Origin: Eledone cirrhosa
Taxonomy: Eukaryota
NCBI GenBank assembly: GCA_964016885.1
Contig: CAXHJY010000833.1
Coordinates: 1-39,308 of the forward strand
Length of the DNA stretch: 39,308 nucleotides
Direction: 5' to 3'
This document shows positions 6,161-35,337 of this stretch, piece after piece. The position numbers and the translations under genes are program-made. The notes beneath the pieces are model-generated. The model was not told the origin of the DNA. It worked only from the letters and a program-made list of their open reading frames with translations, and did no database searches. Each line of letters opens with the position of its first letter. Within the stretch, counting starts at the first letter, position 1.

Positions 6161-6257
6161 ATATATATATATATTTATATATATATATATATATTTATCA
6201 ATATATATATAAACTTTGATATACGCGGATTTGTGTCCTTGTATATTATCAGGCAGT

Positions 6258-8748
6258 ATGCTAACAAAGACATACTTACCCATTTCCTTGAAGAATATTC
6301 CCCCCCCCCCCTAAAATCTCATATGAGAAATCACTGATAACTAGCATAAACTCATTCGTAAAACGTGTTCGGTGGCGTGCGTTCCATTTTGATAAGAAGT
6401 ATGATAGCCCTGAAGAGAGGCGTAGTTTTAATAATTATGGATTTAAGACCTATAGGAGCCCCCCGCATAATAGCCTGTTGGATAACTTCGAAAGTGAGCT
6501 ATTATCCCTTGTTAGGAATATTAGATATAAAAAATCTAGATGTACCAATAAATTTCAGAGTAAACTAAGTTCAATCGTTAGGGACTTTAGGGATAATAAA
6601 TCCATTCTGGTCCCCTCTGACAAAACTAAAAACTTATATAGTATGGATTATAAAACCTATCGAGGCTTCATTTATAATGAACTACATAGGAACTACAAAA
6701 AAACAACGCAGAGTAATTTAGATAATATTAATCTTGAGGGGTATAACATAGTGGTAAAACTAGGTCTGGATAAACACACTCAGCCTTATTACCCCAACCA
6801 GCCTAGATTCACCCTCAAGGACCACAAGGAAGATTTTATTAGCAGACCCTCAGTTAGGCTTATCTGCCCCTCCAAGTCTGACCTGGGGATTATTAGTAAG
6901 GGAATCTTGGATAGCGTTATTCCCCTGGTTAGAGAAAAAACTTTCCTTGAGCTTTGGGGTAACACTAGTGAGGTCATTACGTGGTTCTCTACGGATTGTG
7001 GTCGCGACTCACTCAAATTCATCCAATTTGATATTGATGCTTATTATACATCTATATCTCCTATTATCCTCAATAAGGCCCTCATCCTAGCCATGCAGAG
7101 GGGGGCAATTACAAGGCCACAGATAGATATTGTTCTCGCTGCACGTAAAACCATTATCATGTTTGAGGATAATCTATGGACGAGAAAAAACACACCTGAT
7201 AATTTTGACATTACTATGGGGTCGAGTGACTCTGCTCAAGTCACCGACTTAGTTGGGCTATACCTCCTCAATGAACTGCATAGTAACTTCCATTTCCTTA
7301 GGGGCGGTTTGTACCGGGATGACGCCCTACTCTCCATAGATACTAGTAAGTATAATATAGTGCGCATTAGGAAAAAGCTGCATAGTTTTTTTTAAACATT
7401 TAACCTATCCATTACTATGGATATAAATGATAGAACTGTGAACTTCCTGGATGTTACATTGGACTTGGATAACCATACGTACACACCGTACCATAAGCCT
7501 AATGAATTGCTGACTTACGTGAATACCAACTCTAACCACCCTAGGTCGGTCATCAGCGGTATACTGAAGGGCGTATCTAACAGAATAAGTTCACTCTCAC
7601 ATAGTGAGGAGGCGTTTGACTCGCAGGCTGATTACTATAATGATGCCTTAGCTAGATCCGGCTTTAGGGACAAATTGTATTACACCCAGGGAAATAATAG
7701 TCCTAATAGTAGCTCTACCAGTGTTGTTATAACACATAATATGTCCATTGGTAATGGAGGTGTCGCGAATGGGAGGGTTCTAAATGCCGGTGGAATGAAG
7801 CAGCAGGGCACCATTAGTCTAAGTAATAGCAATAGAGGTGTCGTGAATGGGAGGTTTCTAGATGCCGGTGGAATGAACCAGCAGGGCACCATTAGTCTAA
7901 GTAATAGCAATGGTAGGCCTCGCAGCTTCCCGCATAGACTAGGTGAGCATAGGAACCGTAGAAATAATAATGCTAATAATACTGATGGAAATAGAAAGAA
8001 TAAAAAGAATAGAAGAAGATTGAATACATACTTCAACCCCCCTTTTAATTCTGAAGTGGCTATAAATATTCCTAGGGCCTTCTTCTCTGTGTTAGAAAGG
8101 AACTTCCCTCCTGGTAATAGGTACCACTCTATCCTCAATAAGAATGTTGTTAAACATTCGTATTCTACAACCCAAAATCTGGCCTCTCATCTGGCCATTA
8201 CTAATAATAAGAAAATAAAGGAAGGCCTGGACAACCTAAGCCTAGGGGAAAACACGATAGTGGACAGAGTGGGCAGAAATACAAGTGGTGATCATTCTGA
8301 GAATAGCATCACCAGAGGTTGTAACTGTAGAAGGGCTTCAGGCTGCCCCCTGAATGGTTTCTGCCTTGTTAGAAACATAGTTTATGCATGTGATGTAGTA
8401 ACTACGGCGTCCATTAAGACCTATATAGGATCAACCTCCACCCCCTTTAAGACCAGGTTTAACTCTCACCAATGCACTTTTAGACATAATAAACTGAGGA
8501 ACTCCACCTCCTTGGCAGCGTACGTCCATAATTTAAAAAATGCACGAACACATTACACACTTACTTGGCGGCAGGTTGCTAAATCCCATCCATATACTCC
8601 TCATAATAGAGTATGTAACCTATGCCTTGCCGAATCCCACTCTATTATATTTGCTAAATGCCCTCTACTAAATAGAAAGTCTGAAATATTTTCCTCTTGC
8701 CCCCACCGAATATTAAGCTCTTTCTTCTACTTTAAACCTGTTAGCTAG
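6258..8748 (+). pseudogene. PLE polyprotein (reverse transcriptase + Cys-rich linker + GIY-YIG endonuclease), ~829 aa, two lesions
   Basis: ATG 6258 gives MLTKTYLPISLKNIPPPP, then +1 C in the C12 run (6300-6311), then KISYEKSLI..FVKRVRWRAF. RT motifs FDIDAYYTSI, MGSSDSAQVTDLVG, YRDD, NFLDVTL, KPN..YVNTNSNHP. Linker CNCRRASGCPLNGFC. Endonuclease NIVY..YIGST..FKTRF..CNLC..E..LLN..CPH. Track ORFs 6478-7395 and 7417-8748 are in the same frame, separated by TAA 7393-7395 at a T8/A3 run. Confidence 0.93.
7759..7914 (+). repeat. 78-bp in-frame tandem duplication inside the PLE ORF
   Basis: GVANGRVLNAGGMKQQGTISLSNSNR / GVVNGRFLDAGGMNQQGTISLSNSNG. Confidence 0.9.
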
Positions 8749-10348
8749 CACTTCCTTATTCCTCCAGTTGGGCTGTCTTGTGTAACTGTCTCTAAATGTG
8801 TAACTGTCTCCTATTGTTGGTCGTCTATGTATATGAGTCGGTGAATGTATACGTATGCCTGTGGGAGGATATTGATCTGGATATTGGGGTGTGCAGGTGA
8901 GTGGGTGTGTATGTTAATAAGCACCCCTGTTTGGCACAGTGGATGTAACCCATCCACGCTCGCCTACCCACCATTGGTGCATTGGTGGGTCTATCCTGAC
9001 GTATATCTTGTGGATCTGTATCTCTGTATGCGCATGAGTTGTGATGTAATGTATTTATGTAAAGCGTGTACTGTGATTTAGGCTGCACTAATAGAAATTT
9101 AGCCTGTAACTGTGGGCGGACCTGTGCCATCCCGCCGTAAGCAGTGGATACGTGGCGCATGTACGTGTTGCCCTCATATTCTGTGGTTTAAGATCTACAG
9201 GCTGACTTCTGGGAGCTCTTGCCCGGGGTTGTAGTCTTTCTAGCACGATCGGCCTTCCATATATTGACGGTCGTTGTTATGATCCCGAAAGTAACGTTTT
9301 TGCCCCGATAGCCCTCCGTAGTTACTAACGGTCTGTGTACACTTGAATCGGGCAATGGCACGTGCGGACATGATCATCTCCGTAGGATTTCAACTTTATT
9401 TTACTACATCTCATCGTATGTATTTATTTTGAATGTATTATCCGTGGTGGTGGGTCTGGCCTAATGTGGTATTTCGGTGTTTAATATCAGCTTTGACCCG
9501 GGTGTCCTACGCTGTGTGTGTGTGCGTGTGTGTCCGTGTATACATTTATATGTGTATGGGTGTAGGTGGTTGTATATGTCTGTATATAAAAATATATATA
9601 TATATATATATGTATACCGTCTCTGCATATGCATGTGGTGTGTATATGTGCATATACGTGCTGAACATATTGATGTGTACAATCTTGTGATGTCCCAATG
9701 CGGTGATTTAATGGCTCTTGAAGCTATTTTTTATATATCTTTTGTATGCGCTCCAACTGTGTCTGCTTGCTTTGGCTAACCCGCCTGCACCTCGCTTGCT
9801 AATGCACGTGAATTCTTCTACCTTCCTTCGATGCACCTCTCTCTGACCATTGGACTCCTGCCCGGGTGTGAACGGTTTGTGATTACCCCACCGCTCAACT
9901 GTGTGAATGCACACCCGCGACTTTCGAGTGAACTTTTGAGACTGCCCAACCTGGGACGCCTCCATTGCCTTGCAATGGTCAAGTGATACTGGTGACTGTA
10001 ACACTTAGTGCCTTCGTGGGCCCCTGATATTTTCAAGAAATATATTTTTTAAAAATGGTCAAGTGATACACATAACTGTGACACTTAGTGCCTTCGTGGG
10101 CCCCTGATATATTCAAGAGATATATTTAAAAAAAATATATATCTTATCTCAATTTACTTTATTTCATTTTATTTTATGTTATTTCATTTCATGTTATCTA
10201 ATTTTATTTATTTACTTATTTAATTCCATTTATTTATTTATTTACTTATTTATTTATTTATTTACTTACTTATTTATTTATTTATTTATTTATTTAAATT
10301 TAATTTTAATTTTAATTTTAATTTTAATTTTATTTATTTATTTAATTT

Positions 10349-10380
<32 letters not shown>

Positions 10381-10920
10381 TTACATTTAATTATATCTTA
10401 TATTATATTAATTTAACTTAGTCTATTTTATTTTATTTTAGTTTACCTTATTTTATCTTATTTTATGATTAAATTATATTATGTTCTATTTATATAATTT
10501 TAATTTTAATTTTATATTATTTTATCTCATTCCTTACCCTGTATCACTATTATCTGTATATTTTATATTTTATATGTAAGTTTGTTATGTATTTCTTTGT
10601 ATTTTCTTATATATATTATAAGTCTGTTTTTCACCTATTTTTTACCTACTCTTACCTAATCCTATCTATCTTATCTACTCTTGTCTGTTCTCTTATCCAT
10701 GTGTATGCTTGTATGTAACTATATGTTGACAGCACCCCGCCAAACTGTGACTGATAGCACCCCTTATTTTTCATTGTTTATTTTATTATCTTATTTTTAT
10801 TTTTATTTTTATCTTATCTTTATTTTTACTTTTACTTCCGTAATATCCTTTATCGTCTATATTATTTTTCATTCTTCAATGTCTTGGATTTGTTATTGCT
10901 TGTTATGGTATGTAATTAAC

Positions 10921-10976
10921 CTTTATGCTCTGATGAGTCCACTTAGAGTGCGATGAAACAATGTTAGCAAGTAAAG
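10921..10976 (+). ncRNA. Minimal type-I hammerhead ribozyme (family A, copy 2)
   Basis: Same as 5972-6029 with two single-base deletions in stem II. Core CTGATGA...GAAAC..GTT is intact. Confidence 0.75.
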
Positions 10977-11099
10977 ATATGCATATGCTATAGGCGTTCT
11001 TTGTTATTTATTATCACGGCTCTGTCTCAGACATTGAGCTAACCTTTACTGCTGCTGGATAAGTGGAGTGTTATACACCCTGATCCTCTCCTATTTACT

Positions 11100-12515: not shown

Positions 12516-13660
12516 AGGCTGGGGATGCCGTGGCTAATGATGCGTAAACACGCATTAAGGCTACGGCACCTCTACGTATTCCTCACCGGACAACCGGTGT
12601 GGGCCTCGTTTGTGAGACGAACCTTTCCCAGACTCGTCTCACTCACCGAGCTGCAATCCTGGGTCAAGCAAAGACCGAGAAAACTGGGCGCCTGGCACAC
12701 TGAGTGTGCCCAGGCGCTCACCGCCCTCTGGCAGGCGGATCGGTTATCAGTGGAGACTCCACCGCAACATTCTATAGAGGGCTGGTACGCAGCAGGTGCG
12801 ACGACGCCCTCGGAGAAGCCCTAGACATGGAGGAGGACGAACTGGCCAGCCTGTTCGGTAGGACATTCAGCCCGGGACCTATGGACAACTTCCAGAAGTC
12901 CCTGGCCTGGCAGTGCTACCGAGGGGCTTTACCGTTCGAGAAAGGCTCTACAGACACGGGCGCCCGGGTAGGGACCCCGCCAAAAAGATCTGTCCCAGAT
13001 GCGTGTGCGACGAGGAAACCGTTGCACACGCATTAGTACACTGCTCGGGCGTAGCCGATCTGTGGGGCTATGTCGAACAACTGCTGTCAAGGGTGGGACC
13101 GATCCGGTTGACCACCGAGTCTATGTAATGATCAAGCGCCTCCCCCTTCAAAGATGATAGCAGAGGCGGTGTTTCTGTGCGTAATAGCCATGGCGAAAGA
13201 GGTTGTATGGTGGACGCGTCTGAAAGGACTGAGGTCGGGCACCTTTCTCTCTGGCCAACAACTGGTCCGTTTCTTCCGATATCATTTCGGAAGAAGGATC
13301 AGGATGGAGAGAGAGGTGCTGCACCCAGCCGTTTCTATGAAGATGGGTGAAAGTGGCGAGAATGGCCGTGTGAATGGGCCTTCACTCTACATCAGACTAT
13401 AGGTGAGGAAGATGAAAGACAAGGGAGCACCCCTTCTCTGTGCTCCTGAGGAGAAGGGTTGCACACTTTTTTCGGGGTGTGTGCGACCCCCCAAGGCGCT
13501 CCTCTCTATTGAGGATTTTGTTAAAAATTTTATTTTTTGTTATATCTTATTTTATTTTTATATTTTGTTATTGCCTCCTCTTATTGAGGACGCCTTTTTG
13601 TGTAAACTCCCCCCTTTGTACTTGTCCCACTTTGATGCCCTGGTGGCAAATAAAAGAAAC
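12516..13660 (+). mobile_element. 5'-truncated Tx1/L1-clade LINE 3' end, copy 1 (frameshifted)
   Basis: GLGMP..., WQCYRGALP(V)RERLYRHG...CPRC..ETVAHALVHC..LWGYV (zf-RVT-like CCHC C-terminus). 3'UTR ends AATAAAAGAAA, then TA/TCTA repeats. Confidence 0.85.
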
Positions 13661-13743
13661 ATATCTATCTATATAAATATATATCTATCTATCTATATAA
13701 ATATATATATAATATATATATATTATATATATATATATATATA

Positions 13744-13788
<45 letters not shown>

Positions 13789-13886
13789 ATCTATATATAT
13801 ATATATCTATATATCTCTATATATATATATATCTATATATATCTATATATATCTATATATCTATCTATCTCTCTATCTATATATAT

Positions 13887-14749
13887 ACGACGCCCTCGGA
13901 GAAGCCCTAGACATGGAGGAGGACGAACTGGCCAGCCTTTTCGGTAGGACATTCAGCCCGGGACCTATGGACAACTTCCAGAAGTCCCTGGCCTGGCAGT
14001 GCTACCGAGGGGCTTTACCCGTTCGAGAAAGGCTCTACAGACACGGGCGCCCGGGTAGGGACCCGCCAAAAAGATCTGTCCCAGATGCGTGTGCGACGAG
14101 GAAACCGTTGCACAGCATTAGTACACTGCTCGGGCGTAGCCGATCTGTGGGGCTATGTCGAACAACTGCTGTCAAGGGTGGGACCGATCCGGTTGACCAC
14201 CGAGTCTATTGTAATGATCAAGCCGCCTCCCCCTTCAAAGATGAAGCAGAGGCGGTGTGTTCTGTGCGTAATAGCCATGGCGAAAGAGGTTGTATGGTGG
14301 ACGCGTCTGAAAGGACTGAGGTCGGGCACCTTTCTCTCTGGCCAACAACTGGTCCGTTTCTTCCGATATCATTTCGGAAGAAGGATCAGGATGGAGAGAG
14401 AGGTGCTGCACCCCAGCCGTTTCTATGAAAGATGGGTGAAAGTGGCGAGAATGGCCGTGTGAATGGGCCTTCACTCTACATCAGACTATAGGTGAGGAAG
14501 ATGAAAGACAAGGGAGCACCCCTTCTCTGTGCTCCTGAGGAGAAGGGTTGCACACTTTTTTCGGGGTGTGTGCGACCCCCAAGGCGCCTCCTCTCTATTG
14601 AGGATTTTGTTAAAAATTTTATTTTTTGTTATATCTTATTTTATTTTTATATTTTGTTATTGCCTCCTCCTTATTGAGGACGCCTTTTTGTGTAAACTCC
14701 CCCTTTGTACTTGTCCCACTTTTGATGCCCTAGTGGCAAATAAAAGAAA
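13887..14749 (+). mobile_element. 5'-truncated Tx1/L1-clade LINE 3' end, copy 2
   Basis: Near-identical to ~12802-13660, with the same 3' end and a more downstream 5' truncation. Confidence 0.85.
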
Positions 14750-15054
<305 letters not shown>

Positions 15055-15251
15055 GTAGATAAATCTACCAAGAGTTTACGGTAGTGTCTAATCCGTATGA
15101 AGAACTCAATGTAATCCGGATATCATGGAAAGAAGAGATGCATTCAAAAATCACTTCCGGTGAAAGATAAACGGAATACAGAGTCAAGATAAAATATTAA
15201 AAAAATAATAAATAAAACAATGAAACAGTTCCTTATATTAAACAAAAAAAG

Positions 15252-15403
15252 TTCATTATTTATCGATCGTTTCTAGGACATATATGTGTTAGAATTGGCA
15301 TGCATATTCAACAGATCTATGTACAAAATTATACAAAATTATACAAACTATCAAATTTAATATACATACCAACACATATATATGCGTCTTCAGAAATAAT
15401 GAA
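15252..15403 (-). ncRNA. Type-I hammerhead with long stem II (family B, left arm; cleavage triplet mutated)
   Basis: Reverse complement reads TTCATTATTT CTGAAGA ...~113 nt... GAAACGATCGAT AAATAATGAA, with GAU in place of GUU. Confidence 0.55.
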
Positions 15404-16292
15404 ATATATTTATTGATAAAAACAACAATTCAAAATACAGGACTGTTTGGGAACAGAGTTCAAATTAACCAATGAAATACACAGAATATGTCCAGAAAAT
15501 ACAGTTAGGTGTGTGTATATATGTAAGTAACTTCGTTCACATATATGCATAAAAATATATGTTCACATGCATACGCATGTCGAAAAAATGTATGTAAATA
15601 CAAAAATTCAGGGCTAATGTCTCTGTATGTTTATAATCTACAGATAAAATACATATACGTATATAAACATATATACATTCATATATACACACATACACAT
15701 ACATTCACACAAACACGCGCATATACGCATAAACATACACATAACCACGAACATACACACACACACACACCCACACACACACATATATGTGTATATATTA
15801 TTATCATAAGCATATGGACATTAAGGCACGCACATAAACACTGCCACATATATTTAGGTCCAGATACAGAAAGTAGGTGGGGGGGTCAGTATTTACGTGT
15901 GTCAAACAAACTGCCTATTTAAAAATGTATCTATAAATTTAGAAATAAAAAGAAGAATATTAAAAAAATATATATATATAAACAAGTAAAATATAAAATA
16001 CACATCGATATATATACATATATATACATACACATATACATACACATATATATATATATATACACATATATATACATATATATACACACACATATATATA
16101 GAGACACATACATATACACATATAAATACATAGACACATATACATACACACATATATATATATATATATATACATATTCACAACACACATATATATATAT
16201 ACATATATATACACACACACACATGTACACACACATACACACACACCCATATATACATATATATACACACACACATACACACACACATATAG

Positions 16293-16345
<53 letters not shown>

Positions 16346-16913
16346 CATACACATACATATACACACATACACATACATATACGCATATATACACACACAC
16401 ACATCCATTTATGCATATACACATACAACTACACGCTCACACAACTCAGACATACATAAATAAAGAGATATACATACACACATATACATACATATATATA
16501 TATATATATATAGATAGATATATATACACACACATAAATATATATACACACACACAGACACAAATATACATACATATATATACACACACATATATATACA
16601 CATATATATATATATATATATACATATACTCATATACATATATATAAAATAAAGAAATAAATAAATAAATAAATAAATACACACGGTCAGACAATTATGC
16701 ACACAAATATATATATATATACACATACACTCATCAACTACAAATGTATATATATATATATATATATATATACACTCACATATACACGCACACATACGCG
16801 TATATATACACACAAACACATACACATAGACATATATATACACATATATATACACACACACATACATACATATACATACATACATACATACACACATACA
16901 TACATATACATAC

Positions 16914-16964
<51 letters not shown>

Positions 16965-17620
16965 ATCATACACCCTTATTTACATGCGAACATATGTATT
17001 TTTATACTCACATACAAGCACCCAAATATACATACCTACCTACATATACATACGTACATCCACGCTTACAAATATAAATAATTATAGGGGTGGGGGAATG
17101 GGATTATAGTAAATATAGGTTTCAAGGAACATAGAATATTAAATTGCATCTAGATCATAATATGTGTTTACATAGTAGTTTCAGTATTAGGAAATGTAAG
17201 AAAGAAAGCAAAATTATGCATTTTAATATAAGTAGACTATTAATTATAGGTTAACTAAATTAAAAATAGTTAATATATTGATTTCTAAGGTGTATACTAC
17301 TTCGGTTCATAATTTTTGAAGCGGAATTTTGAAGTTAAACAGTAGTAGAGTATTAATTATAGCATAACTAAATTAAAAATATTAACATTATGGTATCAAT
17401 ATTAGGAAATGAATTTAGTAATAGGGAAAAAAACCTAAACAAGTATTTCATCGGTAGTAGAATATAAATTATAGGTTAACTAAATTAAAAATTATATATT
17501 AATTTCTATAGTATATGTTAATTAGGTTTATAATAATTAAAACAGATTTTGTATTTTATCTATAGTAAAATGTGATTATAGGTTAACAAAAAATAAAAAA
17601 TAAAAAATAAAAAATAAAAA

Positions 17621-17657
<37 letters not shown>

Positions 17658-17936
17658 TATATATATATATATATATATATATAAATGAGACGTATGGAGA
17701 TTGTTTTAGCAAGAAGCTAACGGCATTCTATAACATATATGCGACTATAACGTCAAGATGGGAAAAGTAGTTAACGAAAGATTTAGGAAAAATAACTCAA
17801 ACTCATCTCAAAAGAGAATCAGGATACAAATTCATCCACAGAATTTAGTAAAATCCATGGAAAAATCTATAGACCTTTAACTCATGATAAAACAAAGTTT
17901 GAAACACTTATCCTTCAATTTGGAATAACATCAAAT

Positions 17937-18018
17937 GCTCTGTATAGTCTTAAAAGACTATTTCATGAAAACTTTCAGTGGAGATGGTCACGGTTGGAAT
18001 ATCATTCATCAGCAGAGC
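17937..18018 (-). ncRNA. Type-I hammerhead ribozyme (family C, copy 1)
   Basis: Reverse complement: GCTCTG CTGATGA ATGA..33 nt..TCAT GAAA TAGTC ttttaa GACTA TA CAGAGC. All three stems pair; AUA cleavage triplet. Confidence 0.88.
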
Positions 18019-18566
18019 TCAACAGAAAACCAGGGCTCTCACAGTAATATAGTCCGAAAAAGGGAATTCTAAAACTGGCTAGTTCGCCCTCATGTGTATT
18101 TATGAAAAAGCACATGAGGAAAAAACGGGGCTAGTGACGTCAGGATGGAAGTGAATGTTTATTTACAAGAAATAGCAGTCAAATACATTCTGAAAAAAAA
18201 CTCTACAAGGAGTTCAGCAAAATAGCAATAATTATCACAGTTTTTATGAAAAAAACCGGGATTAGTCACAGATAGTTTACGCACTCTAGGAAAAGAATCC
18301 GAGTATAAATATAAATGAGACGTATAGAGATTGTTTTAGCAAGAAGCTAACGGCATTCTATAACATATATGCGACTATAACGTCAAGATGGGAAAAGTAG
18401 TTAACGAAAGATTTAGGAAAAATAACTCAAACTCATCTCAAAAGAGAATCAGGATACAAATTCATCCACAGAATTTAGTAAAATCCATGGAAAAATCTAT
18501 AGACCTTTAACTCATGATAAAACAAAGTTTGAAACACTTATCCTTCAATTTGGAATAACATCAAAT

Positions 18567-18648
18567 GCTCTGTATAGTCTTAAAATACTATTTCATGAAA
18601 ACTTTCAGTGGAGATGGTCACGGTTGGAATATCATTCATCAGCAGAGC
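18567..18648 (-). ncRNA. Type-I hammerhead ribozyme (family C, copy 2)
   Basis: Same as copy 1 with one distal stem III mismatch (TAGTA/GACTA). Confidence 0.82.
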
Positions 18649-18686
18649 TCAACAGAAAACCAGGGCTCTCACAGTAATATAGTCCG

Positions 18687-18755
<69 letters not shown>

Positions 18756-20334
18756 ATTGTAAAGAATATATTAATTAGGTATATATTTAAAATGTTTCCC
18801 AGTTTATGATTACATGATATTCTGCAATCCATCTGTATTAGAATTTTAATTTTAAGCTAATTAAAATAAAATTTTAGGTTAACTAAATTAAAATTAAATT
18901 ATAAATATATTTCTAAATTTTACATTAATTAGGTTTATAATATTAAAAAATATTTCTCTGTCATTGATTACACGCTATTTTGTACTATTTCATCTGTAAA
19001 GGAATTTTAATAAAAGGTTAAATAAACTAAAATTAATCTATAAATTAATTTACAAAGTATATATTAATTATGTTAATAATTTTTAAAAGTTTTTCACAAT
19101 TTATGATTACACAATATTTTATAATCTCAACTGTAGTAGAATTTTAATTAAATTAAATTTATAGGTTAACTAACATTTAAATTAAATTATATATTAATTT
19201 CTAAAATTATATTATTAATTAGGTTTATAATATTTAAATGTTTTTCTTAGTTTATGATTACACGATATAATTCATTCCTGTCGCTTATTTAATAGGATAT
19301 CCTTAGATTTCATTATTTCAAATAGTTCTTGGGAACATAATCTACATTCATTTCTATTATTTTGATAAGGGGTGGCTCTTTTGAGCACACTCCAGGTCAT
19401 ATCATATTCTATATTCTTATTTTTATAACTATTGATTTTTTCTGCTAGAGATGTTGTATTAGCTAGTGCGGCATTTTTAAAACTATGATTGTGGGTATTA
19501 AACCTTACCTTAAAATTGTTAGAAGTAGCTCCTATATATGAGCAAATAGAATCTTTAGTTTTAACATTACATTTATAAACTATGTTGTTAACAAGACAAT
19601 TTCCTTTTAATGGGCAGTTTGCTTTGTTTCTACAGTTACAACCTTTCGTTAATTCTGTATTTGAGGAGATATTATGGTTAGTTTGATGTATTGGTGGTAT
19701 ACTTATGGTATTCTTACATTTATATGCATTATAGGCACTTATATTTTGTTTTATGTTTTTGGTTGTTGAGTATGAGAATTTAACTGTTGACCTATTTAAG
19801 ATTTGATGGTATTTGTGGTTTGGCGGGAAGTTTTTCTCTAGGATATAAAAAAATTTATAGTGCCTATAATGCATATAAATGTAAGAATACCATAAGTATA
19901 CCACCAATACATCAAACTAACCATAATATCTCCTCAAATACAGAATTAACGAAAGGTTGTAACTGTAGAAACAAAGCAAACTGCCCATTAAAAGGAAATT
20001 GTCTTGTTAACAACATAGTTTATAAATGTAATGTTAAAACTAAAGATTCTATTTGCTCATAAATAGGAGCTACTTCTAACAATTTTAAGGTAAGGTTTAA
20101 TACCCACAAACATAGTTTTAAAAATGCCGCACTAGCTAATACAACATCTCTAGCAGAAAAAATCAATAGTTATAAAAATAAGAATATAGAATATGATATG
20201 ACCTGGAGTGTGCTCAAAAGAGCCACCCCTTATCAAAATAATAGAAATGAATGTAGATTATGTTCCCAAGAACTATTTGAAATAATGAAATCTAAGGATA
20301 TCCTATTAAATAAGCGACAGGAATGAATTATATC

Positions 20335-20842
20335 GTGTAATCATAAACTAAGAAAAACATTTAAATATTATAAACCTAATTAATAATATAATTTTAGAAA
20401 TTAATATATAATTTAATTTAAATGTTAGTTAACCTATAAATTTAATTTAATTAAAATTCTACTACAGTTGAGATTATAAAATATTGTGTAATCATAAATT
20501 GTGAAAAACTTTTAAAGATTATTAACATAATTAATATATACTTTGTAAATTAATTTATAGATTAATTTTAGTTTATTTAACCTTTTATTAAAATTCCTTT
20601 ACAGATGAAATAGTACAAAATAGCGTGTAATCAATGACAGAGAAATATTTTTTAATATTATAAACCTAATTAATGTACAATTTAGAAATATATTTATAAT
20701 TTAATTTTAATTTAGTTAACCTAAAATTTTATTTTAATTAGCTTAAAATTAAAATTCTAATACAGATGGATTGCAGAATATCATGTAATCATAAACTGGG
20801 AAAAATTTTAAATATATACCTAATTAATATATTCTTTACAAT

Positions 20843-20917
<75 letters not shown>

Positions 20918-21300
20918 TAATCTTTATTTTTTATTTTTTGTTAACCTATAATCACATTTTACTATAGATAAAATACAAAATCTGTTTTAATTATTATAAA
21001 CCTAATTAACATATACTATAGAAATTAATATATAATTTTTAATTTAGTTAACCTATAATTTATATTCTACTACCGATGAAATACTTGTTTTGGTTTTTTT
21101 CCCTATTACTAAATTCATTTCCTAATATTGATACCATAATGTTAATATTTTTAATTTAGTTATGCTATAATTAATACTCTACTACTGTTTAACTTCAAAA
21201 TTCCGCTTCAAAAATTATAAACCTAAGTAGTATATACCTTACAAATCAATATATTAACTATTTTTAATTCAGTTAACCTATAATTAATAGTCTACTTATA
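20335..21300 (+). repeat. Degenerate ~110-160-bp AT-rich tandem repeats in the family B 3'UTR
   Basis: Recurring TGTAATCA(TAAA) at ~20337, 20488, 20626, 20784, with recurring ATAAACCTAA and TTAGTTAACCTA. Mirrored in the left arm. Confidence 0.75.
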
Positions 21301-21559
21301 TTAAAATGCATAATCTTGCTTTCTTTCTTACATTTCCTAATACTGAAACTACTATGTAAACACATATTATGATCTAGATGCAATTTAATATTCTATGTTC
21401 CTTGAAACCTATATTTACTATAATCCCCCCCCCCCCCTATAATTATTTGTATTTGTAAGCGTGGATGTACGTATGTATATGTAGGTAGGTATGTATATTT
21501 GGGTGCTTGTATGTGAGTATAAAAATACATATGTGCGCATGTAAATAAGGGTGTATGAT

Positions 21560-21610
<51 letters not shown>

Positions 21611-21716
21611 ATATATGTATGTATGTGTGTGTGTGTATATATATGTATATATATATGTCTATGTGTATGTGTGTGTGTGTATAGATACGCGCATGTGTGC
21701 GTGTATATGTGAGTGA

Positions 21717-21750
<34 letters not shown>

Positions 21751-21766
21751 TTGTAGTTGATGAGTG

Positions 21767-21807
<41 letters not shown>

Positions 21808-21887
21808 GTGCATAATTGTCTGACCGTGTGTATGTATTTATTTATTTATTTATTTATTTAGTTTATATATATGTATATGAGTATATG

Positions 21888-21940
<53 letters not shown>

Positions 21941-22200
21941 ATATATATGTGTGTGTATATATATGTATGTATATGTGTGTGTGTGTGTGTGTATATATAT
22001 TTATGTGTGTGTATATATATATCTCTCTCTCTATATATATATATATATGTATATGTGTGTATGTATATCTCTTTATTTATGTATGTCTGAGTTGTGTGAG
22101 CGTGTAGTTGTATGTGTATATGCATACATGGATGTGTGTGTGTGTGTATATATGCGTATATGTATGTGTATGTGTGTATATGTATGTGTATGTATGTATG

Positions 22201-22241
<41 letters not shown>

Positions 22242-22444
22242 GTGTGTGTCTATATGTGTGTGTGTATGTGTGTGTGTATATATATGTATATATGGGTATG
22301 TATGTGTATATGTGTGTGTACATGTGTGTGTGTATATATATGTATATATATATATATATATATGTGTGTATGTATATGTGTCTATGTATTTATATGTGTA
22401 TATGTATGTGTCTCTATATATATGTGTGTGTGTATATATGTATA

Positions 22445-22489
<45 letters not shown>

Positions 22490-23133
22490 ATGTGTATGTA
22501 TATATATGTATATATATCGATGTGTATTTTATATTTTACTTGTTTATATATATATATTTTTTTAATATTCTTCTTTTTATTTCTAAATTTATAGATACAT
22601 TTTTAAATAGGCAGTTTGTCTGACACACGTAAATACTGACCCCCCCCACCTACTTTCTGTATCTGGACCTAAATATATGTGGCAGTGTTTATGTGCGTGC
22701 CTTAATGTCCATATGCTTATGATAATAATATATACACATATATGTGTGGGTGTGTGTGTGGGTGTGTGTGTGTGTGTGTGTATGTTCGTAGTTATGTGTA
22801 TGTTTATGCGTATATGCGCGCGTGTGTGTGAATGTATGTTTATGTGTGTATATATGAATGTATATATGTTTATATACGTATATGTATTTTATCTGTAGAT
22901 TATAAACATACAGAGACATTAGCCCTGAATATTTGTATTTACATACATTTTTTCGACATGCGTATGCATGTGACATATATTTTTATGCATATATGTGAAC
23001 GAAGTTACTTACATATATACACACACCTAACTGTATTTTCTGGACATATTTCTGTGTATTTCATTGGTTAATTTGAACTCTGTTCCCAAACAGACATGTA
23101 ATTTTGAATTGTTGTTATTATCAATAAATATAT

Positions 23134-23286
23134 TTCATTATTTCTGAAGACGGCATATATATGTGTTGGTATGTATATTAAATTTGATGGTTTGTATAAT
23201 TTTGTATAATTTTGTACATAGATCTGTTGAATATGCATGCCAATTCTAACACATATATATCCCAGAAACGATCGTTAAATAATGAA
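23134..23286 (+). ncRNA. Type-I hammerhead with ~114-nt stem II (family B, right arm)
   Basis: TTCATTATTT CTGAAGA [..ATATATATGTGTT GGTATGTATATT...AATATGCATGCC aattct AACACATATATAT..] GAAA C GATC G TT AAATAATGAA. Perfect 10-bp stem I and palindromic AACGATCGTT. Confidence 0.7.
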
Positions 23287-23347
23287 CTTTTTTTGTTTAA
23301 TATAAGGAACTGTTTCATTGTTTTATTCATTATTTTTTTAATATTTC

Positions 23348-25812: not shown

Positions 25813-25960
25813 CTTTAGGCACAAGGCCAGCAATTGGTACTTTAGTTTATCGACCCCGTAAGGATGAAATGTAAAGCTAACCTCGGCGGGATTTGAAGTC
25901 AGAACGTAAATGGTCATAACTCTATGCTGCAAAGAATGGTGTCTGACGCTCTACTGATAC
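25813..25960 (-). mobile_element. tRNA-derived SINE family S1 (decayed)
   Basis: AGGCACAAGGCCAGCAATT..TTTATCGACCCCGTAAGGATGAAA..CCTCGGCGGGATTTGAA, shared with six other copies. Confidence 0.85.
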
Positions 25961-25972
25961 AAAATATACAAA

Positions 25973-26153
25973 TAATTGTTTATTTTTGGCACAAGGCCAG
26001 CAATTATCCCAGTGTATTACTGGTACTTTATTTTATCGACCCCGTAAGGATGAAAGCAAAGTCAACCTCGGCGGGATTTGAACTCAGATAGTAAAGGGAC
26101 GTAACTCTATGCTGCAAAGTATGGCATCCGCCCTCTACTGGTACATCCAATCC
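25973..26153 (-). mobile_element. SINE S1
   Basis: Same family, tandem with the previous copy. Confidence 0.88.
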
Positions 26154-26321
26154 ATATAGAAATAATCTATAACGTTTAGGGAAGGCCTCAAATCTATAGG
26201 AAGGCGGTCATTAGATAAAGTAGATTCGAATTATTGCTCGAACTTGTTTTCGGGACCCTGTAGTCGTAATGTTTATCAATCCCTATTGGCCTCCCTACAT
26301 ATTAGTTAATAAATATATATT

Positions 26322-26396
26322 GGTCGTCAACTATGAAATTTGTAGAAATCTTTAAAAAAAAAAAACAAATTTCTACAAATTTCATAACTGACGACC
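26322..26396. repeat. 28-bp inverted repeat (hairpin)
   Basis: GGTCGTCAACTATGAAATTTGTAGAAAT ... ATTTCTACAAATTTCATAACTGACGACC (26/28 match). Confidence 0.85.
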
Positions 26397-26764
26397 CCAA
26401 AAATATCAAACATAAGAAAATTGAATTAGAAAAAAAAAAATGAAAAACGTATTAATGAATATATAAAATACAAATACACAAACATAGTTGTTTAAAGTTG
26501 TATACATATGTTAATAAATATATAAATATCAGTAATGTGGAAATTTAGAAATAAATTGTACACATATATGTGAAGGTATTTCGTGTGTAATTTCTATATT
26601 ATAGATATATTGAAAAGCTGATTAAAATATTGGCAGTGTCAAGAATAGACGTATACTGTATTATAGCCCACATCATACCAAATTACTCAATAGTTGTTTA
26701 CTTTAGAATATATATATTGTAGCTGATCAATTGAGAAATCAATTTCAGTTGAAGCAAGCAAGCG

Positions 26765-26844
26765 TTGATGACGATGTTGATTAGTAGGACGATGATGATG
26801 ATAATGGTGGTGGTGGTGTTTGTAACAATGATACTAACAATAAC

Positions 26845-26881
<37 letters not shown>

Positions 26882-26980
26882 GTAATAACAACAACAATGC
26901 TGAAGAAGAAAAAGAAAAAGAAAAAGAAAAAGAAAAAAGAAGAAGAAGAAGGAGAAGGAGAAGGAGAAGAAGAAGAAGAC
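26765..26980. repeat. Compound trinucleotide microsatellite (GAT/GGT/AAT/AAC/GAA)
   Basis: Direct inspection. Confidence 0.9.
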
Positions 26981-27603
26981 ATCATTCTAATTAAATACGT
27001 TAATGGACAAACACATTCATTGCAATCAGCTTATTTAAATATTAGAGAAATCTGCAAATTCTAAATTTAGTTATATATATTATATTTGGAAGGTACTCAC
27101 GCGAGCCAATCAAAGACAGAACGAATAGGTCAGCAGAAAGTATAACTTTAGATTTGAGTTTGAGAATTGTTGAGAGTGTTTAAACGAAGGACAGTTAAAT
27201 ATATTATAAAGATACCATTAAGAAATTAACATTCTTCTAAGTTCTTTCCAACTGAGAATATTATCAAGTCCCGTCATAACTATTCTATATTTCATTTCAT
27301 AACCAAATATATTTAGCTATAAATACACAGGTTAATATATAATAGAATAAATGGAAAAAGAAAAGAATTTATCCTCATTTATATGTTTACTAAATTTGCT
27401 GAAAACCAGAGAAAATAATTACATATATAATTGAATAAAATATACAATTATGTAGTTATTATTCGGTTGCAATCAAATAATTACCTAGTTTCATCAATGG
27501 AAAGAAAGCAATACGTTGTCTTTTAATTGAACACGCACGTACTACATATGCGTAAACCCAAATATCACAACTCTGTTATCAGTTTCATTATTTAATTACT
27601 GTT

Positions 27604-27775
27604 ATGGAAAAGGTCTGGGTATGTTGTGGATGTACAACTTGTCGGAGAGAATGTCTGGTGTATCAACATTCTGAAATAAATTAACATTTTGATTAGGGTG
27701 ATGGAAAAGGTCAGTATGTCGTAGATGTACTAAATGTCGGAGAGAACGTCTGGTATTACATATTCCGAGATAAAT
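27604..27775. repeat. Diverged 97-bp-period tandem duplication
   Basis: ATGGAAAAGGTC...TGTCGGAGAGAA.GTCTGGT...ATAAAT at 27604 and 27701. Confidence 0.8.
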
Positions 27776-27829
27776 ATAGCATTAAAAAAAACAAATCTAT
27801 GTTTTCTCAAGTCCCAAACAAAACGCGAA

Positions 27830-27990
27830 TCCACACAGTATAAGGGAATACGAAAAAGGAGGAATTAAGACGAAATGAATGAATATATTTTAGACTTGAA
27901 AGGATTAAGTTAATAAAAATGAAAACATTGAGATGGAAGAGAGTTCCAAAGTCTGTCAGTTCAAGCAAAAGAGGCTACGACCTTAGAAAG
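27830..27990 (-). mobile_element. Decayed LINE ORF2 C-terminal fragment (CR1/L2/Jockey-like)
   Basis: Reverse complement encodes TDRLWNSLPSQCF...NLxxFKSKI-like motif. Confidence 0.55.
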
Positions 27991-28152
27991 ACTTCATTCG
28001 TTTTAAAGACTTAAATTGATTTCTGTCCATTTATTTGACTGTACATGATATTAGATTATACCTGAAGATTCATAATGAATGAAAAGAAATCTTCGACAGA
28101 TTTCCCTTAAAAAATAATTTAAGGTTTCATTATTAGGTATATATCTGTAAAT

Positions 28153-28402
28153 TAAAGATGGAAAACTAGGAGAGGGCACTTGCCTTGGTGGTCAGGGTCA
28201 TTGTGGCTTTTTACTGGGCTTTCTCCACAAATGTCCCTCCGAAGTCTCCCCCGTATTGGGGAATTTTTCATTGTTATTTTTTGTTACACCCTCTGTTTTT
28301 TGTTTTTTTTACACGCAGAAATGCCCATTTGTACCGTCCTGTATTGTTCTGCACTGTCCTTAATGTCTACTTTATGTAAACCCTTGTGGTTAATAAAGAA
28401 AT
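28153..28402 (+). mobile_element. Possible Tx1/L1 3'UTR remnant
   Basis: Layout resembles the 3'UTR at 13405-13660 and ends CCCTTGTGGTTAATAAAGAAA. Confidence 0.4.
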
Positions 28403-28411
28403 CATTATTGA

Positions 28412-28594
28412 ATGAATTGGCAGTATCGGTAGGGAGTCGGACGCCTTGCTTTCCAGCATAGTTACCTCCCTTTACGGTCTGAGTTCAAATCCCGTCGAGT
28501 TTAACTTTGCCTTTCATCCTTCCGGGGTCGATAAAATAAAGTACCAGTAATGCACTGGGTATTTGCTGGCCTTGTGCCAAAAGTAGAAACAATT
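28412..28594 (+). mobile_element. SINE S1
   Basis: A-box-like TGGCAGTATCGG, B-box GAGTTCAAATCC, then GCCTTTCATCCTTCCGGGGTCGATAAAATAAAGTACCAG (resembles the Deu/Nin SINE domain, from memory). Confidence 0.88.
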
Positions 28595-28734
28595 ATTGAA
28601 ATATATGTGATTAATTATCAGTAACATGACATTTGTGAAGATAATGACGTAACACACAAAAAGCATATTAACTATACTTGTAGTTCTAAACAGATTATGG
28701 ATCACAATAATTTTTCTAACAAATAATCGCTTGG

Positions 28735-29135
28735 TGTTAATGTCATTTATGCATCGCTTCCATTGTTTATACATCAGTTCAAATCTATTCTTCACGTGAA
28801 ACAACGTACACCGCAATGGATGAAAATTCCAGTTATGCATCGTTTCTTTTTGTTTTAACATCTGGGTCAAAGCTCCTATCTATATGACCCACAGTTGATG
28901 TTAATGCCTGTTATGCATAGCTTTCATCTGGTCAAAGCACTTTTCCAGGTGAACCAGTTAATATCACTTGCTGATAATGCCAGTTATTCATAGCTTTCAT
29001 TGTCTTTACATCTGGTCAAAACTATTTTCCACTTGAACCACAGTTGACATATTTTGCTGTTAATGTCATCTATCCATCGCTTTCATTATTTTTACATCTG
29101 GTGAAAGCTCTTATACACATGAGCCACACAGTCCA
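28735..29135. repeat. Degenerate minisatellite, ~5 units of 73-86 bp
   Basis: AT(G/T/C)CAT(C/A)G at 28749, 28835, 28913, 28986, 29072, mostly followed by CATCTGGT(C/G)AAA-like sequence. Confidence 0.75.
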
Positions 29136-29811
29136 TCTCACTTCAATTAGTTGCTCTCGTGGACTGTTTATAAATGATCTTTGATAATTATTATGTCCGG
29201 TACATTACTTCCCTAGGAGGCGATAATTAATTTAATCTCTATACGATAATATACGATGATATATATATATATAGTAATAATAATAAATTTGAAGACTAAA
29301 ATCCAAAGTAGGCTCGATAAGGATAAATATATATCAAATATATAAGAACCGTAGAGCAAATATTTATTAAAATAACAGATTAAAGTTTAAGCAAAGAATC
29401 GCTGCTTTCACCCTTAACGGGATCTTCTGAAACTAACAAAGTCAATCTGTGAACGCAGAAGTGAATATATCAAAAATCGTTGCAACCGGAGGAAGACAGG
29501 AAGACGATACTTTGGTTCGTGGAAACGTTCCCTGGCAAATAACGGGAAAAAATGAATATAATACTTCATTATTTGGAGCGGTGAAAAACAATTACACGCA
29601 AAGACAGAACCACGTTTATGGTATAAAAGAAGTCGTAGACTAATATTATCGTAGGTGGTTCATAGAGACGTTGGAACAAGGAACCAAATAAATATATATA
29701 TATTTTTTTAAATAAGACTCCAGTTGCATTTTCGTTTTCATCTTTTTTTCTTTATACTTTCACTCGTGTAGGACACCTCGGTAATTTTTCATTTTGTAAA
29801 AGAAACCTCAC

Positions 29812-29876
<65 letters not shown>

Positions 29877-29943
29877 TAGTTATATTTGGGGCTGGTCATG
29901 TTGCCAATATTGCCAATAGAAAAGGAAACACAAGCATCATATT

Positions 29944-29997
<54 letters not shown>

Positions 29998-30167
29998 GGG
30001 ATAACAGGTTATCGTTATGCCAGTCCACTTAGATGTAGTCCAGTTGGAGTACTCCGTGTAGTGGATAGTATTAACGTGTGGCTTAGTTTGACTCAACAAG
30101 ACGTTTCCATAGTGATGCTGCTAGTTCGCGGTGATTTTTATGTAGTTTATACTTGGAGTAATAATAG

Positions 30168-30453
30168 TTCAAGAAAGAAGAGTGACATGGTTGGCTATAC
30201 AATAAGGGCTTTATTCACATTGCTGACAATTGTTTCTTTGATCTGGCAGGTCTAGAGTTCGCTATACGCCTGATTATGCGCCAATCGATGTGCTCCGAAG
30301 AAAAATACTGGTTATAAACAAAGTATTGGAGATCGATTGGCGCATTATCAGGCGTATAGCGAACTCTAAACCTGCCAGATCAAAGAAACAATTGTCAGCA
30401 ATGTGAATAAAGCCATTATTGTGTAGCGAACCATGTCAATCTTCTTTCTTGAA
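30168..30453. repeat. Foldback with ~128-bp arms and ~31-bp loop
   Basis: 30168-30296 is the reverse complement of 30328-30453 with few mismatches. Confidence 0.9.
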
Positions 30454-31215
30454 TTATATATATATATATATATATATGTATATGTATATGTGTATGTGAG
30501 TGTGTATGTGAGTGTGTGTGTGTGTGTGTTTGTCTGTGTGTGTGTGTGTGTTTTGTATGTAAGTGTTCATAATAAATTCATTTTTCCGTTGTTGTTTTTA
30601 TATAATAGTTGTAAAGCTATACCTCAATTATTTTTCATTTCAGATGCCATTTCATATAACTTTCATACATTGAAGATATTGTTTTGTTATTTATTGTTTG
30701 TCTTCTGTTGGTTGTGATGAATAACATAGACTGTAATCTTAGAAGAGATACTAGTAACATTTCCGATGGTAATAATGGAAGTAATTGCTCTCAGTCGAAT
30801 TTAGACTATCGATGGAGACGTCATCTCAGGTAAATCATTTTCTTACGTTACACCTCTCATCAGAGTTATATTGATATTTCTTTACTGAGATTGTCGTATA
30901 CTTCCTATTGATTTCGGTTTGACAAGGACGAAGGAGAGAGTGAGGAAAAAGATTGTTGGTGTAGTTGAAATGAAATGTATTGAATGATTTTTTAAAAGGG
31001 GGTACCAATAATCTGTCAATATATGACACTTCCCAACAGATAATTTCATTGGATATACAGTTTATGTTGCAAATCAATTACATTAATATTGTTATATTTG
31101 AGGAGGTTCGTGGTGTCCTGACAGTGGGAGTTTGATTCCTTTGTGTATATGTATTTGGTTCCTGGTGTATATGTAGATATTTATTTACCGCACCTTTATT
31201 ACCAAGAAAGGTAAT

Positions 31216-31392
31216 TGTTTCTACTTTAGGCACAAGGCCAGCAATTACCCAGTGCATTACTGGTACTTTATTTTATCGACCCGTAAGGATGAAAGGCAAA
31301 GTCAACCTCGGCGGGATTTGAACTCAGTTCCTAAAGGGACGTAATACGCTGGAAAGCATGGCGTCCGACCCTCTACCGCCAATGCACCGCCC
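31216..31392 (-). mobile_element. SINE S1 with 18-bp TSD
   Basis: ATTACCAAGAAAGGTAAT at 31198-31215 and 31393-31410. Confidence 0.92.
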
Positions 31393-32401
31393 ATTACCAA
31401 GAAAGGTAATGAAAGAAGTTATGTAAATGAACATGGAATGGTTAATTTATTGCAAGAGACACAAATAGTTAATAAATATTTACTTTTGCTTAGTTTATCA
31501 ACCATAACCGTTAAGTATAATTATTTATCGTTATTTATCTATACTATTCAAGTACTTATATAAAGTAGCTAAAATATAAAGTTTTGTTCATGCAGGAAAA
31601 TAATACGTTAATGTAACAATTATAAAATACAAAACCGCTATCTCTCTTCTAAGTTTAAAACCAATTCAACGTTTCTGATATATTCCATACTTTACAAACA
31701 AACAGCTATTCAAACGAAACGCAAGTACATGATGACCGTCAAGCGACTTCATTTACAGTTTAAATAGATTGCATTTACGCTGAACTAAGGAGAAAAGTAT
31801 GAATGTTACAATATTAATTTCTGCCAAGTTAAAGACATAAAATATAAGATGACTGTAATTACTAATGTCTCGTTTTTAATTATTCCATTTCATGTTCTTC
31901 CCTGGGACCAACAGGGATGTGATAAAACAATTGTATATTTATAATTTACCTGAAATTTAAATGGATAAGGCATCTTTTTTTCATCCTACGTGTTAAAGGA
32001 AAGATTCAATACGTACCCATTTCGCTTGTACAAAGTAAGTTATTCAACGTTCTGTGTTGATGTCACAAAGAAGAGTAGAAAATCCTTTGAAAATAAAAGA
32101 AAACGAATAGTTAGTATAAGCCTGGAAACTATTGAATGTTGTTTGGTTATATAATAGAGAATATATTTACATAAATTATTTTGTATGTTTATTTGTGTAG
32201 CCATATGCTATCTTACTAACAATGTATATTGATATTGATAGAGAATTGCATGTGACCAACATATTACAAGCTGATAGTAGTGACATTTTCTCACGATCAT
32301 CGACAAAGACTGGAAAGGTTATTGACATTTTGTCATCGACACTACCGCCGAACGGTGTTCAAAATAATTGACTGATTTCACCGACTAGAAATGTATAAAA
32401 T

Positions 32402-32591: not shown

Positions 32592-32747
32592 TGTATAAAA
32601 TGTATAAACTAATGATACAACATATATAGGGCAAGCAGAGTTTATGACTTTATTGAGATAGCATTTAATTCTGGTTTAAAAACATTATATGAACGGAAAA
32701 AATGAAACGAAATTTCATTTCTCACTCTTAGTACGGCTGTTACTTAA

Positions 32748-35297: not shown

Positions 35298-35337
<40 letters not shown>

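What the first reader, a model, noticed from the sequence alone, without database searches (positions are those of the whole stretch)
17681..18689. Retrozyme-like element: paired hammerheads predict a 630-nt self-excising, possibly circular, non-coding RNA nested in a Penelope-like element
Seen: two nearly identical 379-bp direct repeats 630 bp apart, no meaningful ORF, each carrying a fully paired type-I HHR on the minus strand (cleavage at 17943/17942 and 18573/18572). The spacer has a hairpin, CCTCATGTG/CACATGAGG at 18088-18119. The element sits in a (TA)n tract of the family B 3'UTR in the same orientation as that PLE arm, and the sister arm shows the empty site. Known: retrozymes are non-autonomous HHR retroelements that yield circRNAs, and metazoan ones are proposed to use PLE machinery. 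Inference: a young retrozyme family. Its monomer is longer than the few-hundred-nt animal monomers I recall, and its stem III is stable enough to cleave as a monomer, unlike minimal PLE HHRs.
Basis: partly seen in the sequence, partly recalled or inferred. Interest (0 to 1): 0.9.

Follow-up and report, generated by a model that had tools for sequence, protein, structure and literature searches.

The report
Hammerhead retrozyme family targeting TA repeats
This is one copy of a family of non-coding, roughly 630-base repeats, present in thousands of units, each carrying a conserved hammerhead motif predicted to cut its own RNA and likely pasted into TA microsatellites by Penelope-like retrotransposons; the kind is known, and RNA circles remain untested here.

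Summary
The 'two 379-bp repeats' are 1.6 head-to-tail units of a 630-bp monomer. Both carry a minus-strand type I hammerhead, and the upstream one has a private stem III mismatch. The genome holds 2,483 matches to a relaxed hammerhead pattern (control 3), in subfamilies down to 69% identity, with compensatory changes in stems I and II. No sampled copy runs into an ORF. Copies share one fixed 3' end in (TA)n, about 260 nt past the predicted cut, at an internal TA-like sequence. Their 5' ends vary, cross the cut site freely and often exceed one unit. This matches Penelope-type target-primed reverse transcription with internal priming on a circular or uncut multimeric RNA. Nesting in the family B Penelope-like element (Hydra-clade motifs) is incidental: that TA tract is part of every B copy and is empty in 37 other B loci. 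No sampled PLE shares sequence with the unit, so the helper is unidentified. Cleavage, expression and circles are untested. The size is within the published range (51-972 bp). Verdict: new member of the known animal non-LTR retrozymes, with an unusually clear insertion signature.

The parts
17681..18689 (-). Whole insertion: 1.6 head-to-tail units of the 630-bp monomer; fixed 3' end at 17681, truncated 5' end at 18689
17681..18310 (-). One complete 630-bp unit, read from the internal junction to the 3' end
18311..18689 (-). 5'-truncated upstream unit (unit positions 252-630)
17937..18018 (-). Downstream type I hammerhead: stem I 6 bp, stem II 4 bp with a 33-nt loop, stem III 7-8 bp; predicted cut 17943/17942
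18567..18648 (-). Upstream type I hammerhead; private mismatch at 18586 shortens stem III to 5 pairs; predicted cut 18573/18572
17943..18572 (-). Predicted cut-to-cut 630-nt monomer RNA (circle not shown)
   Evidence: fold prediction only
18299..18320 (-). Internal TA-like junction between units; genomic 3' ends stop here and run into (TA)n; inferred priming site of reverse transcription
18088..18119 (-). Spacer hairpin; its 6-bp core is 96% paired across 23 subfamily representatives; recurrent 5' truncation point
18135..18142 (.). TGACGTCA palindrome (CRE-like; label recalled), kept in 17 of 23 representatives; role untested
17624..17680 (.). (TA)n flank at the 3' end of the element
18690..18752 (.). 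(TA)n flank at the 5' end of the element
15055..19916 (-). Host: left arm of an inverted, 5'-truncated family B Penelope-like element (endonuclease end plus long 3' UTR; Hydra-clade motifs)
20846..20917 (.). Empty (TA)n site in the sister arm (19843-23347, + strand)

Best explanation
It is one 5'-truncated insertion of a multi-subfamily, non-coding tandem repeat of about 630 bp that carries a conserved type I hammerhead predicted to self-cleave, and it is likely a non-autonomous retroelement (animal non-LTR retrozyme) copied into (TA)n by a Penelope-like element's enzyme. Shown: copy number, tandem units, absence of an ORF, hammerhead covariation, one fixed 3' end about 260 nt past the cut, variable 5' ends that cross the cut and often exceed one unit, and abundant (TA)n-associated PLEs with long open frames. 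Inferred mechanism: a multimeric or read-through transcript is cut at successive hammerheads and a host ligase closes the 630-nt monomer into a circle. A PLE endonuclease nicks (TA)n, the nicked strand primes at the internal TA-like junction, and the reverse transcriptase runs round the template for a fraction of a turn up to several turns. It often ends at internal TA-like microhomologies. Some long arrays were later expanded locally by unequal exchange. I put the retroelement and PLE-dependence at about 0.8, and the circle as template at about 0.5 within that.
For: 154 exact hammerhead-core hits, 1,809 hits to the 3' end, 2,483 relaxed hammerhead hits against 3 controls. On 59 distinct hammerheads 94.8% of cells pair and 5 pairs change on both sides, 0-1 of 500 shuffles as high, slid controls 27-51%; core position 7 takes all four bases. 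Fixed 3' end in 36 of 39 young arrays found only with internal probes (counted) and a CATT-(TA)n end 225-290 nt past the cut in 40 of 45 contexts from the variant searches (a few are TA-run junctions inside an array). Of 27 arrays picked by genome order, 13 pass the cut, 0 stop within 255-270 nt, and 5 exceed one unit. Units within an array differ by 0.42%, between arrays by 1.20%; 13 array-private variants are shared by all covering units. One 64-bp target duplication (L088). Indels ignore frame: 34 of 380 are multiples of 3. Internal priming downstream of the hammerhead at AT-rich nicks is shown in vitro for a PLE (PMC11167929). Hydra-clade PLEs insert into (TA)n (PMC8557442), and families A and B have copies at 96-99% identity with 800-870-aa open frames.
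Against: No cleavage, expression or circle data. No PLE among 167 sampled stretches (0.96 Mb) shares sequence with the unit, whereas many frog retrozymes match PLE termini. 58 of 71 array-private variants are not shared by all units, and alternating ABAB arrays look like local duplication, so multimers do not all come from rolling-circle copying. In the PLE assay, uncut RNA was the main template, and only 1 of 9 predicted frog retrozymes cleaved in vitro. The covariation counts are on related sequences preselected by a pattern that fixes the core and part of stem III. This copy starts only 41 nt before its first hammerhead, so it could give a monomer only by read-through.
Confidence: 0.78

Rival explanations
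1. Same non-autonomous, PLE-mobilised element, but the template is an uncut linear tandem transcript from multimeric source arrays. The hammerhead cuts slowly or only trims ends, and circles are absent or are by-products.
For: Arrays of 5 to more than 15 units exist as possible sources. 5' ends show no pile-up at the cut (2 of 102 within 20 nt), which fits uncut RNA as well as a circle. Unprocessed RNA was the dominant substrate for an anole PLE. Loop II is long and the base of stem II is often a U-U mismatch (25 of 59 unpaired).
Against: Stems I and II are kept by compensatory change across subfamilies, which suggests selected activity. Stem III is predicted with probability 0.87-1.0 in 18 of 21 circular folds scored. 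Arrays are homogeneous for array-private variants in 12 of 41 cases.
Confidence: 0.35
2. The unit is the pseudo-LTR of an autonomous PLE, and these copies are its 5'-truncated ends or tandem termini.
For: Same layout as PLE termini here: hammerhead, a short tail, then (TA)n (family A). 24 of 57 Xenopus retrozyme families match known elements, 21 of 22 of them PLEs.
Against: In 121 arrays with a closed 3' end and all diverged loci, the sequence upstream of the hammerhead wraps back into the same unit or stops at a flank; none reaches a PLE ORF. A profile of the family finds only inserted copies in PLE loci. The sample is under a tenth of the copies and the flanks were 1.5 kb.
Confidence: 0.07
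3. A SINE-like element copied by a LINE (RTE, L1 or Tx1-like) from the 3' end of a linear RNA.
For: Fixed 3' ends with 5' truncation are also the LINE signature (established knowledge), and LINE-like ORF fragments occur near several loci.
Against: The 3' end is internal to a tandem unit and continues into the next unit; there is no poly(A) or element-specific tail; insertions longer than one unit are common; the (TA)n bias matches PLEs in this genome.
Confidence: 0.08
4. A satellite spread by DNA-level processes (unequal exchange, extrachromosomal circles), with no RNA intermediate.
For: Higher-order ABAB and ABB patterns made of mostly private variants show local DNA duplication in long arrays.
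Against: It cannot explain one nucleotide-precise 3' end with scattered 5' ends at over a hundred dispersed loci, copies as short as 28-70 bp, or a conserved ribozyme.
Confidence: 0.04

Closest known systems
Animal non-LTR retrozymes (Cervera and de la Pena 2020, PMC7229834; read parts 2-4 of 6)
   Same: Non-coding, AT-rich tandem units with one type I hammerhead each; thousands of motifs per genome; co-existing PLEs; hammerhead predicted to stay formed in the circle; long target duplication when visible.
   Different: Unit of 630 nt against about 170-400 nt for the RNAs studied there; 33-nt loop II and 7-8-bp stem III. The parts I read do not describe a fixed internal 3' end in (TA)n. Cleavage and circles were shown there and are untested here.
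Non-LTR retrozymes as PLE derivatives (Li, Clavereau, Pollet, bioRxiv 10.64898/2026.07.22.740005; read parts 1-3 of 5, supplements not seen)
   Same: Monomers, dimers and multimers; length inside their 51-972-bp range; co-occurrence with PLEs; local tandem expansion.
   Different: They find homology to PLE termini for many frog families; none was found here. They give no insertion-end analysis in the main text I read.
Penelope-like elements: Poseidon of Anolis (PMC11167929; read parts 1-2 of 4) and the Hydra clade (PMC8557442; read passages and sections 10-11)
   Same: Partial-tandem insertions, 5' truncation, occasional inversion, 3' end internal to the RNA and downstream of a hammerhead, AT-rich or (TA)n targets.
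   Different: No ORF; full-length stem III. In the anole element the priming site is not homologous to the target, whereas here the end lies in a TA-like mimic of the target.
Non-autonomous Chlamys PLEs such as MRC1 of Chlamydomonas (PMC8557442 section 10)
   Same: Non-coding, multicopy head-to-tail insertions of PLE type.
   Different: Those generally resemble their autonomous partner at the 3' end, and most Chlamys lack canonical hammerheads.
Plant LTR retrozymes (as described in PMC7229834 and the 2026 preprint)
   Same: Two hammerheads flanking a monomer of several hundred bases when only this copy is viewed.
   Different: Type III hammerheads in true LTRs with 4-bp target duplications and Gypsy helpers; here type I in a truncated tandem.

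Membership tests
Animal non-LTR retrozyme | Type I hammerhead in each repeat unit | tested here: met
   Rfam models did not detect it
Animal non-LTR retrozyme | Head-to-tail tandem units, dispersed in many copies | tested here: met
Animal non-LTR retrozyme | No protein coding | tested here: met
   longest frame 83 aa; frame-blind indels; no linked ORF
Animal non-LTR retrozyme | Low GC; target duplication longer than 4 bp when present | tested here: met
   1-kb bins covering it are 24-28% GC; one 64-bp duplication, others unreadable in (TA)n
Animal non-LTR retrozyme | Unit size in the known range | tested here: met
   608-644 bp in 95 distinct full units; above the 150-450 bp of the 2020 paper, inside 51-972 bp
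Animal non-LTR retrozyme | Self-cleavage of the transcript | not testable with these tools
   fold and covariation only
Animal non-LTR retrozyme | Expression as linear and circular monomer RNA | not testable with these tools
   no RNA holder listed
PLE-derived retrozyme (Li et al. 2026) | Sequence homology to the terminus of an autonomous PLE | tested here: inconclusive
   none in 167 PLE stretches plus family A of the window; not all PLE families were sampled
Autonomous Penelope-like element | RT plus GIY-YIG ORF within the unit | tested here: not met
Plant-type LTR retrozyme | Type III hammerhead in true LTRs with 4-bp target duplication | tested here: not met
   type I topology; variable 5' ends; multimers
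Hydra-clade PLE (host family B and neighbour A) | DKT in place of DKG, RWK-like motif, CxCX5C linker, CxxC and CxH motifs, (TA)n targets | tested here: met
   motifs read by eye against PMC8557442 section 11; RWR rather than RWK; no tree built
Hydra-clade PLE (host family B and neighbour A) | Canonical hammerhead near the 3' end | tested here: inconclusive
   present in family A; none found in 12 family B stretches

The most novel reading that the evidence does not exclude
A long-lived circular-RNA parasite that has lost all sequence likeness to its helper and is integrated by rolling-circle reverse transcription primed at an internal mimic of the (TA)n target. With over a hundred mapped ends, several parallel hammerhead families of the same design and intact candidate helper proteins in one genome, it would be the first system where the proposed circRNA-to-genome step of animal retrozymes can be read from insertion ends and rebuilt in vitro.
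Probability: 0.35. Interest if true: 0.68.

Novelty: new member of a known kind. Interest (0 to 1): 0.42.

Why it matters
How animal retrozymes get back into the genome is proposed, not shown (PMC7229834; the 2026 preprint calls its own evidence on the life cycle limited). This family gives a clean genomic footprint: one internal priming point, free passage across the cut site, and insertions longer than one unit. It sits beside young PLE families with intact open frames, so 'which helper' and 'circle or uncut multimer' become direct experiments. As a class of element it is not new.

Tried and rejected
Rfam at gathering and at E <= 10 gave no hammerhead match. Pfam gave nothing for 16 window frames. 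Sequencing runs: no RNA holder listed, which says nothing on expression. Partner search: family B, 60 GIY-YIG stretches and a profile search over 167 stretches found only inserted copies. Two weak profile hits (L272, L256) lie in LINE-like coding sequence, and a 23-nt antisense match to an endonuclease end had E = 0.28; both rejected. Dimer-circle or template-switch reading of the ABAB arrays: most differing alleles are private to the array (rarer allele seen in two or more other arrays at 5 of 21, 4 of 19, 3 of 12 and 5 of 19 sites in four arrays), so local duplication is simpler. Anti-ribozyme lock: the consensus fold paired the cut site with a conserved 7-mer about 200 nt downstream, but there is no covariation, the lock has probability above 0.1 in only 2 of 19 single folds, and 11% of 7-mer windows are as conserved; kept as a weak lead. 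Coding by the 83-aa antisense frame: rejected by frame-blind indels. Circular folds are more stable than shuffles on both strands (z -2 to -7.6, only 15 shuffles each) and are about 60% paired, not rod-like. Literature searches found no description of this family; the host taxon terms were my guess, and repeat databases were not available, so it may be catalogued there.

Full report
Observation. The repeats are at 17681-18059 and 18311-18689, offset 630, with two mismatches. On the minus strand each has stem I (6 bp), the CUGAUGA core, a 4-bp stem II with a 33-nt loop, GAAA, stem III and UA, a type I hammerhead with predicted cuts at 17943/17942 and 18573/18572. The upstream copy has a private change at 18586 that shortens stem III to five pairs; it folds no better than shuffles (z -0.9), the downstream one modestly better (z -2.0). 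The spacer hairpin is real (z -4.6). The longest frame is 83 aa. Rfam misses the motif.

It is a large family. The window is contig C860 of a 3.0-Gb genome. Counts are 154 exact hits to a 23-nt core, 1,809 to the 27-nt 3' end with one mismatch, 526 to a stem II variant and 2,483 to a relaxed hammerhead pattern against 3 controls. From 170 loci I recovered 95 distinct full units of 608-644 bp, in 23 clusters running down to 69% identity with the window unit. The unit length is kept throughout, and indels ignore reading frame (34 of 380 are multiples of three). The head-to-tail junction appears in raw DNA reads (20 reads, 7 starts) and in a contig of another run, so it is not an assembly artefact.

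The hammerhead looks selected. In 59 distinct copies 94.8% of cells pair. Stem I shows GC to AU in 9 copies and UA to AU in 2; stem II shows CG to UA in 26. At most 1 of 500 shuffles matches the measures of change on both sides, and slid controls pair at 27-51%. Core position 7, which is free in hammerheads (established knowledge), takes all four bases, and the stem III loop varies in length. Caveats: the copies are related, the pattern fixes the core and part of stem III, and the first pair of stem II is unpaired in 25 of 59.

Insertion ends. Of 121 distinct arrays with a closed 3' end (9 loci were open), 104 end at unit position 625-630 under a strict alignment; most of the rest are diverged copies whose alignment stops early (compare). 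Among young arrays found only with internal probes, 36 of 39 end at the same base, almost always in (TA)n; the three others are an inversion, an interrupted copy and one beside a gap. In the variant searches 40 of 45 contexts have the same end 225-290 nt past the cut. Inside arrays that position reads CATTTAT-ATTTATAC or a longer TA run, a mimic of the target. 5' ends scatter. Of 27 arrays taken in genome order, lengths run from 28 to over 2,155 bp; 13 pass the cut, none stops within 255-270 nt and 5 exceed one unit. Of 102 closed 5' ends, 2 fall within 20 nt around the cut, while 17 cluster at three internal AT-rich sites. One locus has a 64-bp target duplication (L088).

What that implies. 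A cut linear monomer primed 262 nt from its 5' end would give a hard stop at the cut, and none is seen. The template is therefore a circle or an uncut multimer (inference). Units within young arrays are closer (0.42%, 86 pairs) than between arrays (1.20%), and 13 array-private variants in 12 of 41 arrays are shared by all covering units, as repeated copying of one template predicts; 58 other private variants are not shared. Long arrays show ABAB or ABB periodicity with unique end units and mostly private alleles, best read as later local duplication. The circle is thus plausible but not shown.

Context. Family B is a young PLE: 150 of 150 scored hits, nearly all at 96-99% identity, some with frames over 800 aa. 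Family A (3410-11098) likewise has many copies with 844-873-aa frames. Both show the DKT, RWR, CxCX5C, CxxC and CxH motifs that PMC8557442 gives for the (TA)n-targeting Hydra clade (read by eye, no tree). The TA tract holding the element is intrinsic to the family B 3' UTR and lacks the element in 37 other B loci and the sister arm, so nesting and orientation carry no information about the helper. No PLE stretch sampled shares sequence with the unit.

Mechanism. Likely cycle: transcription of a multimer or by read-through, cutting at successive hammerheads, ligation to a circle by a host ligase (shown for other animal retrozymes), nicking of (TA)n by a PLE endonuclease, priming at the internal TA-like junction (internal priming shown for an anole PLE), copying for part of a turn or several turns, and joining at AT-rich microhomology. 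Only the genomic footprint is shown here. This copy begins 41 nt before its first hammerhead, so it could yield a monomer only by read-through.

Comparison and verdict. It meets every sequence-level feature of animal non-LTR retrozymes. The 630-nt size exceeds the 170-400 nt of the RNAs in the 2020 paper but lies within the 51-972 bp of the 2026 preprint. Six literature searches found no description of this family; repeat databases and the preprint's supplements were not seen and may hold it. Earlier notes of this scan report similar elements in other genomes (unchecked). It is a new member of a known kind. Its value is the clarity of its insertion ends and the presence of intact candidate helpers. 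Interest 0.42.

Noticed in passing
L259:3300-6500, L263:3700-4610, L267:2300-3230, L345:7400-8150: At least three other hammerhead tandem families of the same design (units of about 460-510 bp ending in (TA)n), unrelated in sequence; two carry an ATGCAAAT octamer about 70-80 nt upstream of the hammerhead. The genome seems to host many parallel retrozyme lineages.
   Followed up: partly
window 32966-33002, minus strand: A minimal hammerhead of the same family as L259/L264.
   Followed up: no
window 3410-11098, plus strand: Family A PLE in partial tandem with hammerheads at 5981 and 10930, a TA tract between tail and 5' UTR, and an ORF at 6292-8748 with one in-frame stop.
   Followed up: partly
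L141-L152 and window 15055-23347: Family B, a very abundant young PLE, shows no canonical hammerhead near its 3' end, unlike what is reported for the Hydra clade.
   Followed up: partly
runs X4 and X7: A run under a different organism label holds a 487-nt contig about 99% identical to the young subfamily and spanning the junction; another holds a 151-nt piece with one difference at depth 2. Close relative, mislabel, contamination or transfer cannot be told apart.
   Followed up: no
L009, L032/L033, L313: Inverted arrangements of units, as seen in PLE insertions.
   Followed up: no
L308-L309 (G000:C1:82128400-82138400): An old array of more than 15 units with a recently duplicated two-unit block (A and B 7% apart, copies 0-0.5% apart).
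   Followed up: partly
window 12517-14750, plus strand: Two GC-rich, 5'-truncated copies of what looks like a LINE 3' end, flanked by TA-rich tracts; no Pfam match.
   Followed up: no
window 25835-36375: A repeat of about 190 bp occurs at least six times in both orientations at 80-93% identity.
   Followed up: no
window 17727-17749 against 17943-17969, minus strand: A conserved downstream stretch is complementary to the cut site and core and could act as a lock on the ribozyme; weakly supported.
   Followed up: yes
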